Shown piece by piece: positions 1 through 3,000 of a stretch of DNA of 64,000 nt. Made by a program: the position numbers. Position 1 is the stretch's first letter. Every line of letters begins with the position of its first letter. Source of the stretch: Escherichia coli (GTDB lineage Bacteria > Pseudomonadota > Gammaproteobacteria > Enterobacterales > Enterobacteriaceae); assembly GCF_030013205.1 (NCBI RefSeq), contig NZ_CP122648.1; one strand, given 5' to 3'.

Positions 1-3000
1 GGTCACCTTTACTCTCAGGGAAAAATTAAGCGTGCCAGAGAAAGCATCAGCACGTAGCGGTTCACAAAAAACCATCGCCAGACAGCAGACCCAGAATGGC
101 AGCGAACAGGCACCAGACAAAGGCATGAATACGCAAAGTTCGTTCTGGAAAAAAATCAATGATGCCGTTGGCTCTGGTCTGGATGCTGTTGGCATCGGGA
201 GCGTGAAAGAGGAAGGGAAAACATGAAATTGATACAACGCTGCATGATTAATGGCGAACGGGTGGAAATTGCCGATATAAGCCTTGTTCTTACCCTGAAT
301 GCTGCCGGTCGTGGCTTCATTTCTGTTAACAATCTGTCATCCGAACACAGCCTTGCCGGCGCAATGGTACAAATTGATCTCGGTCGTGACGGTGAAGCAT
401 GGCGCTATTTCTCCGGCTATATTGAGCGCGATCAACCTGCTGAAAATGGCTCACGTCGCCTTTTTATTCGTGAAGCGGCTGCTGTGCTGGATTTTGATTT
501 CCCCTGCTCCATGCAACACCCGACGTTGCGGGAGGTACTCGATAATCTGGGGCGACAAAGCGGTATCGTTTTTATCACTCCGGATGCGGATTATGCCAGT
601 ATACCAACTCCCTACATCACCCACAGCGGCAGCGGAGCACAACTGCTCAGCCAGCTGGGGCGAGCATTCAGTATCAACGATTACGTCTGGCACCCTATGC
701 CGGACGGTTCTGTATTTGTGGGAAGTGCAGCTGATTCACGATTTGCCAGCATTACAATGCCGGATATTCCGCAACAGTACACACTCGGGCAAAGCGGCGG
801 AAACAGCATCGACATCATGTTTATGGAAACTGTGCGACCGGGCGTGAACCTTCCGGCCGGGCGCATTACCCGTGTAGCCCTCAACAACGAGAAAATGACC
901 CTGACATGGGAGCGCCTTACCGCCACGGGCAGCCCTGTCTCCAAATCACCATTACGCAGACAGATGGAAACACAGTTCCCGGAACTGGCCAGCGGCACAC
1001 TACACACCAGGCTGGCGCGCGTCATTGCACCAACGGAATCCGCCACCCTGGGCGATGTGGCCGACAGCTTCCGTCCACGCTACGCCGTGGACGTGCAACT
1101 GCTCGATGAGGACGGCAACGATAAAAGCGATACGCCTGTTTACCCGGCAGTCCCACTCCCCGTCCCGATGGCTGGTAGCGAGGCGGGATGTTTTGCCTAC
1201 CCGCCGGCAGGCACCATCGTGGAAATATCTAACATTGAAGGGCGCCCGGATAAACCTGTTATCAGGCAAATCTTACCTGCTGGCCATAACCTGCCTGATG
1301 TAAAGCCCGGCGAACAACTGCAGCAACAGCGCGCAGAAGTGTTTCAGCGCGTCACGACTGACGGAAGCTGGCACAGAGAAACAGACCAGCAAATCAGGGA
1401 GCAGTCAGCCACCCGCACAATTAACAGTGATGCAGAAGAGCGCACCACAACAACCAGAACAACCACAGTACGGGCAAACGACATAACCAGTGTTCTGGGA
1501 ACCAGCAAGCTGGCGGCAGGACAAATAGAGCACCTTACTACCGGCCATTACGCGATCGCAGCCAGCGAGCATATCCAGATGGTAGCGCAGGATTTGCTGA
1601 CTAAACTCAAAGGGGCAATATCCACAATTGAGCAGGACCTGACTGAAAACGTGGGAGGCCGCAGAACATGCCGGGCGGACGGCGGTCTGAAGTTTACAGC
1701 CCCGACAGTATTTATTGGTCGCGGTGGCTCACGGGAAAAATCCGAACTTAATCTGCTGACGTTGTTGATTGATATTCTGGATCTGATTCAATTGCTGGCC
1801 ACGCACACAGCAAACCACACCCACAGCAACACTGGCGCACCAATGAACAGCGGCGAACTTGCCGCAGATGCCCTGCAGGCTACGAGCCTGCGCGAAAAAT
1901 ACGGCGACCTTATCGCCTGAGCTCCCGACATAAAACCCACATAAACGCCCCATCAAACAACGCACGGTTCCGACCGTGCGTTTTTCATATCCACCACCTG
2001 ATTAATGCGTTCTGCGTGCCATTCCGGCGCTGTATGCACACACCGCGTAAACGGTGTGACGTAAAGTGTGAGGTGACGTAAACCGCGCTACCCCCTCCAA
2101 CCCGCGGGTTTTGTGTCGAAACAGTTTTTCAGTTTTCTGCCGTGCAAAACTGACCGCCAGCCCGCGCAGCAACTGAGGAAAAAGCGAAGATCTGAAATTT
2201 CACGCTTTGAAATTTTTTGCAGTTTTCAGAGGGATTTTTACGATCTCATGAATGGCAGGAGAAAGAAAACAGGCTGATATTAAAAGAGTTTTCATACTTT
2301 ACGTGGGACAAGACGCGATCGCGAAAGGATCGCATCAAAAAATCTTCAAACAACGAAGCCAGACGCGGCGCGGCCTGCGTAAGATTGAGAGTCAAAATTA
2401 AACTGAAAAAAGGATCAATACCGCGCCTCGATCGCACATGACGATCTACGCAGCAACAGGACAAAAAAACCGGCGCGAACGCCGGCGGAAGCATGTATCA
2501 AATGCGTGACTGAATAATGTCTACGGTCGGGAATTTTATATCAAAAGGCTGACAGGCCTCAACGGATTGAAACAAGGGAAAAAACCAGGCTAGAATTCGC
2601 GCGGGTGCCTTTCGGCTGATGGTCGGAGGGAATACCCGAAGGCCGGATGTGGAAAGGCCCCGGAAAACATTTCTGTTTAACCGAGGCCCTAACATATCTA
2701 CCTTAAGCAAGTGATAGGTTAGCGCCTCTCCAACAAAGGAGCAAGCGCTATGTCGCAAAAATCGCTTACGGCCATCACGTTCTGCGTGACGGTAATCCTC
2801 ATCATCTGGATGCTGCACGGCTCGCTGTGTGAAATACGGATGAGCTTCTGGGGAGCGGAGTTTGCGGCGTTCTTACAGTGTAAACAGTAAGGAAACCGCG
2901 ACGGGGGAGCAATCCCCCGTCAATCGGTTGCCAGGGTATGGTCGAAGTGGCACCCAAATTTAAATTGAGGCCCACCAGTAAGAGTGGTGGGCTTAACGCT

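What the first reader, a model, noticed from the sequence alone, without database searches (positions are those of the whole stretch)
223..1920. Short VgrG-like fused hub-spike protein at the end of a truncated operon
The 565-aa protein combines a hub-like N-terminus with a gp5/VgrG-type OB-fold motif, a fusion typical of T6SS VgrG or eCIS spike proteins rather than phages such as Mu or P2, where hub and spike are separate. Its size is shorter than most T6SS VgrG proteins. It is coupled to an upstream gene cut by the window edge, so the machine it belongs to (prophage tail, tailocin, eCIS or T6SS) cannot be decided here.
Basis: inference. Interest (0 to 1): 0.55.

Follow-up and report, generated by a model that had tools for sequence, protein, structure and literature searches.

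The report
Fused hub-spike protein of HP1-like prophage
The 565-residue gene encodes the cell-puncturing tip of a complete P2/HP1-type prophage tail in E. coli, with the tail hub, the spike and its metal-binding point joined in one protein as in bacterial VgrG; it is an ordinary phage structural gene with a slightly unusual layout.

Summary
The ORF at 223..1920 (+, 565 aa) is real. It overlaps the upstream gene by ATGA and is followed by a strong terminator. It is the orthologue of Haemophilus phage HP1 orf35 (PHROG 2258 'baseplate protein', full length, E 1.8e-232).

- Residues 244-565 are a gpV/gp45/gp5-type spike: OB fold, beta-helix, and a conserved C-terminal HxH motif.
- The best full-length matches are eCIS spikes and T6SS VgrGs (Foldseek E 1e-19 to 1e-14).

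The machine can now be named. In E. coli genomes identical to the window over its first 4.6 kb, the gene is the last late gene of a complete ~34.5 kb P2-family prophage. That prophage has an HP1-type tail module and sits between pheL and raiA. It is not a T6SS, eCIS or tailocin.

The cut upstream gene is the HP1 ORF34 homologue, which has the fold of a tube initiator or ripcord protein.

In many relatives the hub (~230 aa) and spike (~320 aa) are two adjacent overlapping genes, so this form is a lineage-specific fusion.

It is a well-populated phage family. Interest is modest.

The parts
1..226 (+). 3' end (last ~75 codons) of the upstream gene, the homologue of HP1 orf34. It is predicted to be a tube-initiator or 'ripcord' type baseplate protein. 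The part inside the window is its disordered, Q/S/K-rich C-terminal tail plus one helix.
207..226 (+). Translational coupling junction: ribosome-binding site AAGAGGAAGGG (207-217), and ATG (223-225) overlapping the upstream TGA (224-226).
   Evidence: Read directly from the sequence.
223..1920 (+). Whole gene: the HP1 orf35-type fused hub-spike-apex protein, 565 aa.
   Evidence: (PHROG 2258, E 1.8e-232, positions 1-565 against 1-544/544).
223..918 (+). Hub module, aa 1-232. It has a gp27/Mu gp44-like fold: a beta-barrel (1-84), an alpha/beta insertion (85-170) and a second beta region (187-230). In many relatives it exists as a separate ~225-240 aa protein.
919..951 (+). Fusion linker, aa 233-243 (TATGSPVSKSP...). 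It is absent from split relatives, where the hub gene stops and the spike gene starts here.
   Evidence: Junction sequences in L002 and L003. C-only relatives begin at query residues 242-253.
952..1380 (+). Spike neck and OB-fold domain, aa 244-386. It includes the conserved PEL..HL..A.V...FRP.YAVD motif block.
   Evidence: Pfam Phage_base_V at 310-347, weak. NCBIfam VgrG models at 264-364, sub-threshold. The profile matches the VgrG OB region: 4mtk 411-457 and 8gra 415-609, E 4e-7 to 1e-5. Conserved columns.
1381..1737 (+). Region predicted to form the intertwined trimeric beta-helix of the spike, aa 387-505.
   Evidence: The profile matches the T4 gp5 beta-helix (residues 440-576), E 4e-7. 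Pfam Gp5_trimer_C is weak. The region appears as coil in the monomer model, as expected for an inter-chain beta-helix. Inference.
1738..1917 (+). Apex region, aa 506-565: two helices (511-530 and 543-560) flanking the loop THTANHTHSNTGAP.
   Evidence: Model secondary structure, pLDDT 83-94. Conservation.
1816..1824 (+). The HxH motif (His532-Thr-His534, CAC ACC CAC). It is the presumed metal (Fe) cage of the spike tip when three chains meet.
   Evidence: H532 is conserved in 92% and H534 in 94% of 66 aligned sequences. It lines up with P2 gpV HTHKH (not significant on its own). The role of HxH is taken from PMC12407873 and doi 10.1101/2023.02.25.529910.
1959..1990 (+). Intrinsic terminator closing the late (tail) operon.
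   Evidence: 10-bp stem with 6 GC pairs, followed by TTTTCAT.

Best explanation
The gene encodes the central spike complex of the contractile tail of an HP1-like, P2-family (Peduoviridae) temperate phage integrated between pheL and raiA of E. coli. One chain carries three parts that are separate in other systems.
1. A reduced gp27/gp44-type hub (aa 1-232).
2. A gpV/gp45/gp5-type spike: OB fold (aa 244-386) plus a trimeric beta-helix (about aa 387-505).
3. Its own apex with a conserved HxH motif (aa 532-534).

Inferred mechanism: three copies form a trimer. The hub end presents a pseudo-six-fold surface on which the ORF34-type tube initiator, the tape measure protein and the tube assemble, and around which the W/J/I wedges form the baseplate. 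The beta-helix and the His-caged metal tip plug and sharpen the tube end. On sheath contraction the spike is driven through the outer membrane.

The fold assignments, the gene context and the conservation are shown here. Trimerisation, metal binding and the role in assembly and penetration are inferred from P2, Mu, T4 and VgrG. The fused form arose by joining two adjacent, overlapping genes (hub, spike) that remain separate in many relatives.
For: Family: PHROG 2258 'baseplate protein' matches full length at E 1.8e-232. Homologues occur in HP1, HP2, ESSI-2, SW5/SI7, phiO18P, CFP3 and phi3 at 35-49% identity, always at the end of the genome or late operon. HP1 has the same orf33-orf34-orf35 order.

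Fold: the AF2 model has pLDDT 91.9 and pTM 0.73.
- Foldseek against PDB: eCIS spikes 7aef_q 2e-19, 9qgm_8A 4e-18, 7b5h_AJ 4.5e-18, 6j0m_A 1e-16, 6rbk_C 1e-15; VgrG 9jg9 1.6e-18, 8gra 7e-17, 4mtk 5e-16. All are aligned over about 550-680 columns.

Sequence profile against PDB: gp5 beta-helix and VgrG OB fold plus helix, E 4e-7. The HxH motif is conserved in 92-94% of sequences.

Context: a complete prophage with int, repressor, gpA-like nuclease, ogr, Q, P, O, N, M, L, sheath, tube, holin, peptidase, tape measure, W-like, J, I-like and fibres. No separate gpV, gpD or PAAR gene is annotated or found by PHROG scans. The upstream partner has a tube-initiator/ripcord fold.

Split relatives with the same synteny.
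Against: - No curated hub profile matches. Pfam Phage_GPD gives no hit, Phage_base_V gives only E 0.047, and the VgrG NCBIfam models score 16-20 bits against cut-offs of 122-186.
- hhalign of the family profile against the single sequences of P2 gpD and gpV is not significant.
- The hub part is about 100-150 residues shorter than gpD or gp44, so at least one canonical hub domain is missing or supplied by another protein, possibly the uncharacterised ORF33.
- Only a monomer was modelled. Whole-chain TM-scores are low (about 0.3) because the domains of an elongated monomer do not superpose rigidly.
- The helical hairpin around the HxH differs from the gpV sequence, which has no hydrophobic helix before the motif and no helix after it.
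- I found no experimental work on HP1 orf35 in the searchable literature.
Confidence: 0.88

Rival explanations
1. It is the spike of a non-phage contractile injection system: an orphan T6SS VgrG, an eCIS (Afp8/Pvc8-type) spike, or an R-type tailocin.
For: The best whole-chain fold matches are eCIS spikes and VgrGs. The size (565 aa) is like Afp8/Pvc8 (about 504-535 modelled residues).
Against: The gene is the last late gene of a complete prophage with portal, terminase, scaffold, P2-type capsid, lysis genes, integrase and replication genes. No Tss, Hcp or PAAR genes are present, and neither are the eCIS AAA+ ATPase or cap genes. VgrG NCBIfam scores are far below cut-off. Homologues sit in isolated, plaque-forming phages such as HP1, ESSI-2 and phiO18P.
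Confidence: 0.03
2. Only the C-terminal two thirds is the spike. The N-terminal 230 residues are an adaptor that resembles a hub only partially, and the true hub is another protein such as ORF33.
For: The N-module is about 100-150 residues shorter than gpD or gp44. ORF33 (237 aa, PHROG 1677/31292, function unknown) is uncharacterised. No sequence profile of a hub family matches.
Confidence: 0.06
3. The 565-aa ORF is an assembly or mutation artefact that joins two genes which are really separate, as in the split relatives.
For: Many relatives have two genes overlapping by 16-19 nt at exactly this point.
Against: The fused reading frame with a dedicated linker is conserved across genera and in independent complete genomes and isolated phages. 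Examples: HP1 533 aa, ESSI-2, Salmonella SI7, Yersinia, Edwardsiella, Serratia. At least 10 distinct 50%-identity clusters are fused, and one 95%-identity cluster holds 956 member sequences.
Confidence: 0.01

Closest known systems
Haemophilus phage HP1 orf35 and its orthologues (HP2, Cronobacter ESSI-2, Salmonella SI7/SW5, Aeromonas phiO18P, Yersinia vB_YenM_324); PHROG 2258 'baseplate protein'
   Same: Full-length homology at 39-49% identity. Same position as the last gene of the late operon after the orf33-orf34 homologues. Same fused architecture.
   Different: It is a distinct E. coli prophage lineage, at most about 49% identical to any phage in the isolate collection. The downstream cargo also differs: hok/gef, a TM2 protein, and Com plus a DNA methyltransferase.
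Phage Mu gp44 (hub) + gp45 (spike), and P2 gpD + gpV
   Different: In Mu and P2 the hub and spike are separate genes, and in P2 they lie in different operons. Here they form one chain. The hub is about 100-150 residues shorter. There is no detectable sequence similarity to gpD or gpV. The HxH lies in a predicted helix-loop-helix rather than at the extreme C-terminus.
T6SS VgrG (TssI) and eCIS spikes Afp8 / Pvc8 / Algo spike / Anabaena All3320
   Different: The protein belongs to a DNA-packaging phage. It carries its own HxH apex instead of a blunt end capped by a separate PAAR/Afp10-type tip. It fails the VgrG family score cut-offs. It has no effector domains.
Split relatives of the same family (PHROG 4011 for the spike half), e.g. 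L002 and L003
   Same: Homologous hub and spike modules, and the same gene order orf33 - ORF34 - hub - spike at the operon end.
   Different: Two genes overlapping by 16-19 nt, with the spike gene in the -1 frame. There is no linker.

Membership tests
HP1 orf35 family (PHROG 2258) | Full-length profile match | tested here: met
   E 1.8e-232, residues 1-565 against profile 1-544/544.
HP1 orf35 family (PHROG 2258) | Position as the last late gene, after the orf33 and orf34 homologues, in a P2-family genome | tested here: met
   L001 gene table, HP1 gene table, Pfam HP1_ORF34 on the upstream gene.
Contractile-tail baseplate hub (T4 gp27 / Mu gp44 / P2 gpD) | gp27-type fold with tube-like beta-barrel domains | tested here: met
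Contractile-tail baseplate hub (T4 gp27 / Mu gp44 / P2 gpD) | Match to the curated sequence profile (Pfam Phage_GPD) | tested here: not met
   No Phage_GPD hit in the Pfam scan. hhalign against P2 gpD is not significant.
Contractile-tail baseplate hub (T4 gp27 / Mu gp44 / P2 gpD) | Trimer with a pseudo-hexameric face that docks the tube initiator | not testable with these tools
   Only monomer prediction was available.
Central spike with fused apex (P2 gpV / Mu gp45 / phi92 gp138) | N-terminal OB fold followed by a trimeric beta-helix | tested here: met
Central spike with fused apex (P2 gpV / Mu gp45 / phi92 gp138) | Conserved HxH motif near the C-terminus that cages a metal ion | tested here: inconclusive
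   The motif is present and conserved in 92-94% of sequences. However, it lies 31 residues from the end, inside a predicted helical hairpin, and metal binding cannot be tested.
T6SS VgrG (TssI) | Score above the curated cut-off of TIGR03361 / TIGR01646 | tested here: not met
   16.3 and 20.3 bits against cut-offs of 186 and 122.
T6SS VgrG (TssI) | Encoded with T6SS core genes, Hcp or PAAR | tested here: not met
   The neighbours are phage head, tail and lysis genes, then E. coli core genes.
T6SS VgrG (TssI) | Hub and spike on one polypeptide | tested here: met
eCIS spike (Afp8 / Pvc8) | Locus without capsid or packaging genes, and with an AAA+ ATPase, a cap protein and a PAAR-like tip | tested here: not met
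   Portal, terminase, scaffold and capsid genes are present. None of the eCIS accessory genes is annotated.

The most novel reading that the evidence does not exclude
HP1-type phages would carry an 'all-in-one' spike complex, with hub, spike and metal-caged tip on a single chain. This combination is not described for P2/Mu (separate hub), T4 (three proteins) or VgrG/eCIS (separate PAAR-type tip). The apex would also be unusual, with the HxH loop held between two helices. Because close relatives keep hub and spike as two overlapping genes, the family would be a natural, independent replay of the gene fusion that produced VgrG. It would also be a convenient system for testing what fusion costs or gains in assembly.
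Probability: 0.5. Interest if true: 0.4.

Novelty: new member of a known kind. Interest (0 to 1): 0.28.

Why it matters
The result settles an annotation gap. HP1-like prophages are common in Enterobacteriaceae, Pasteurellaceae, Vibrio and Aeromonas, yet they show no recognisable gpV or gpD. Their orf34 and orf35 are labelled only 'baseplate (complex) protein' or 'hypothetical'. Assigning orf35 as hub plus spike plus apex, and orf34 as tube initiator/ripcord, completes the minimal baseplate parts list for this tail type. It also shows that VgrG-like hub-spike fusion is not a signature of secretion systems, which matters when prophage tails, tailocins, eCIS and T6SS islands are told apart by gene content. 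The coexistence of fused and split forms gives a small evolutionary case study. None of this overturns current views of contractile tails.

Tried and rejected
- A single-sequence search of PDB sequences found nothing. Only the family profile reached gp5 and VgrG.
- hhalign of the family profile against the single sequences of P2 gpV and gpD was not significant. Kinship to P2 therefore rests on fold, not sequence.
- Sequence searches of ORF33 and ORF34 against PDB, with single sequences and with the A2 profile, gave nothing.
- Programmed frameshifting was considered as a way split relatives might also make a fused protein, because the spike gene lies in the -1 frame with a 16-19 nt overlap. I saw no slippery heptamer in the overlap, so ordinary translational coupling is the simpler reading.
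- Neighbour-joining trees of the hub and spike modules put most fused sequences in one clade, with one fused outlier (P0141) among the split ones. Midpoint rooting cannot say which state is ancestral. 'Split is ancestral' rests only on outgroup reasoning from P2, Mu and T4.
- Literature searches for HP1 orf35, Hpunavirus baseplate or spike, and HP1-like plus VgrG found no paper dealing with this protein.
- An Rfam scan of 1-6000 found nothing.
- A trimer could not be predicted with the tools. A linker-joined pseudo-trimer was considered and dropped because coordinates cannot be inspected.

Full report
**Observation.** The window starts inside a late operon.
- An ORF of 565 codons runs from 223 to 1920 on the + strand.
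- Its ATG overlaps the stop codon of an upstream ORF that runs off the left edge (ATGA at 223-226), with a purine-rich ribosome-binding site at 207-217.
- Thirty-nine bases after its stop codon there is a 10-bp GC-rich hairpin followed by a T run (1959-1982).

**Where the window comes from and which machine this is.**
- Downstream of the ORF lie small accessory genes: hok/gef, a zinc-ribbon/TM2 protein, and a Com-like protein overlapping a DNA methyltransferase. After them come raiA, bamD, rluD, yfiH and clpB.
- The first 4.6 kb are 100% identical to E. coli strains RM10740 and ETEC4079. Twenty-three complete E. coli genomes carry at least 80% of this stretch.
- In ETEC4079 the region upstream of the window is a complete ~34.5 kb P2-family prophage inserted between pheL and raiA.
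- Its genes are integrase, repressor, gpA-like replication endonuclease, ParM, an ogr/delta activator, portal, terminase, gpO scaffold, P2-type capsid, gpM, gpL, tail completion proteins, sheath (DUF2586), tube, holin, M15 peptidase, chaperone, tape measure, a gpW-like DUF2590 protein, baseplate J, a gpI-like protein, fibres and assembly proteins. Two 'hypothetical' genes (237 and 191 aa) and the 565-aa gene follow.
- This is the gene order of Haemophilus phage HP1, whose last three late genes are orf33, orf34 and orf35.
- There are no T6SS genes and no eCIS accessory genes, and head and packaging genes are present.

**Family.**
- The protein matches PHROG 2258 ('baseplate protein') over its full length (E 1.8e-232), and PHROG 4011 over residues 243-559 only.
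- tblastn finds it in HP1, HP2, ESSI-2 and relatives, Salmonella SI7/SW5, Yersinia vB_YenM_324, Aeromonas phiO18P, Pasteurella phages and Pseudomonas phi3, at 35-49% identity. The hit lies at the end of the genome or late region.
- More than 1100 homologues exist in the 90%-clustered protein collection, and 598 clusters at 50% identity match.
- Curated profiles barely see it. Pfam gives Phage_base_V at E 0.047 (residues 310-347) and nothing for a hub. NCBIfam VgrG models score 16-20 bits against cut-offs of 122-186.

**Structure.**
- An 86-sequence alignment (A1) gave an AlphaFold2 model with mean pLDDT 91.9 and pTM 0.73.
- Foldseek ranks these fused proteins first over about 550-680 alignment columns, E 2e-19 to 5e-14.
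- Independently of any model, the family profile hits PDB sequences of the T4 gp5 beta-helix and of VgrG (OB fold plus helix) at E 4e-7.
- The mapping onto VgrG1 (profile 293-338 to VgrG1 411-457) places the OB fold just after the junction. It implies that the hub part is roughly 100-150 residues shorter than in VgrG, gpD or gp44.

**Domain map**, from the secondary structure of the model and these matches:

| Part | Residues |
|---|---|
| Hub | 1-232 |
| Linker | 233-243 |
| Neck helices and OB fold | 244-386 |
| Beta-helix region | about 387-505 |
| Apex | 506-565 |

**Apex.** The C-terminal region contains THTANHTHSNTGAP between two predicted helices.
- His532 and His534 are conserved in 92% and 94% of 66 aligned sequences.
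- P2 gpV ends ...KVLHTHKHPGDSGGTTGSPL.
- According to the Leiman laboratory (PMC12407873 introduction; doi 10.1101/2023.02.25.529910 abstract), an HxH motif near the C-terminus of a spike marks a built-in apex domain. In that domain three HxH copies cage an Fe ion, and such spikes are proposed to need no separate PAAR-type tip.
- No PAAR-like gene is annotated in the prophage.
- I therefore read the protein as hub + spike + tip in one chain. Metal binding and the geometry of the helical hairpin are inference, because only a monomer could be modelled.

**Fused and split forms.** Among the 150 best 50%-identity representatives:
- at least 10 are fused;
- 20 are proteins of 225-244 aa that match only residues 1-~231;
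- 53 are proteins of about 283-403 aa that match only from residue 242-253 onward.

In two such relatives the two genes are adjacent, in the same orf33 / ORF34 / hub / spike order, and overlap by 16-19 nt with the spike gene in the -1 frame. The break coincides with the canonical hub/spike boundary. The E. coli and HP1 form is therefore a fusion of neighbouring genes, or the split form is a fission. Neighbour-joining trees group most fused sequences together but cannot polarise the change. By comparison with P2, Mu and T4, I consider split the ancestral state (inference).

- Its AF2 model is confident for the core (residues 50-125, pLDDT above 90) and disordered at the C-terminus, which is the part inside the window.
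- This fits a protein that sits on the hub and starts the tube.

**Mechanism (inferred).**
- Three chains trimerise, and the hub ring nucleates the baseplate (W/J/I-type wedges).
- Through ORF34 and the tape measure protein, the hub ring also nucleates the tube and sheath.
- The beta-helix with its His-caged tip closes the tube and acts as the penetrating point when the sheath contracts.

**Comparison and novelty.**
- In function and fold this is a standard central spike complex.
- It is a member of the HP1 orf35 family by every test I could apply.
- It works like VgrG or Afp8 in architecture but is not a member of those families, since both the score cut-offs and the gene context fail.
- It shares folds but no detectable sequence similarity with P2 gpD and gpV.
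- What is slightly unusual is the combination of a reduced hub, a spike and a built-in HxH apex on one chain, together with the coexistence of fused and split versions.
- I found no paper that discusses this protein, but databases already label it a baseplate protein.
- I rate it a new member of a known kind, of modest interest.

Noticed in passing
window 2750-4460: The accessory cargo at the right end of the prophage comprises a Hok/Gef-type toxin ORF (2750-2890), a zinc-ribbon + TM2-domain protein (3026-3322), and a Com-family zinc-finger protein (3503/3512-3709). The Com gene overlaps the start of a DNA methyltransferase gene (3654-4460). This resembles the Mu com-mom arrangement but with a methyltransferase in place of Mom.
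   Followed up: partly
window 1990-2750: About 760 bases lie between the late-operon terminator and hok with no convincing ORF and no Rfam match. The stretch contains several terminator-like hairpins on the minus strand (e.g. 2486-2469). It may hold the hok regulatory/antisense region or a prophage remnant.
   Followed up: no
window 16303-17701: kgtP (alpha-ketoglutarate permease) is broken into three overlapping ORFs in the window. RefSeq flags the gene as a frameshifted pseudogene in strain ETEC4079.
   Followed up: partly
L002 4756-4771; L003 8669-8687: In relatives with separate hub and spike genes, the two genes overlap by 16-19 nt and the spike gene is in the -1 frame in both loci examined. 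I saw no slippery heptamer in the overlap.
   Followed up: partly
L001 18966-19679 (just upstream of the window): The ORF33 homologue (237 aa; PHROG 1677 and 31292, function unknown) has no Pfam or PDB sequence match. It is the one conserved gene of the HP1-type baseplate region still without a role, and it could supply what the shortened hub lacks.
   Followed up: partly
proteins P0202 (875 aa), P0125 (727 aa), P0122 (612 aa): Some family members are much longer than the query, and part of each chain does not match it. For example, the spike module occupies residues 6-255 of the 875-aa protein P0202. The unmatched parts could be added domains on the spike. They were not examined.
   Followed up: no
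L005 595-1821 (outside the window, left of the prophage): dgcN (yfiN) is annotated as a pseudogene with an internal stop in strain ETEC4079.
   Followed up: no
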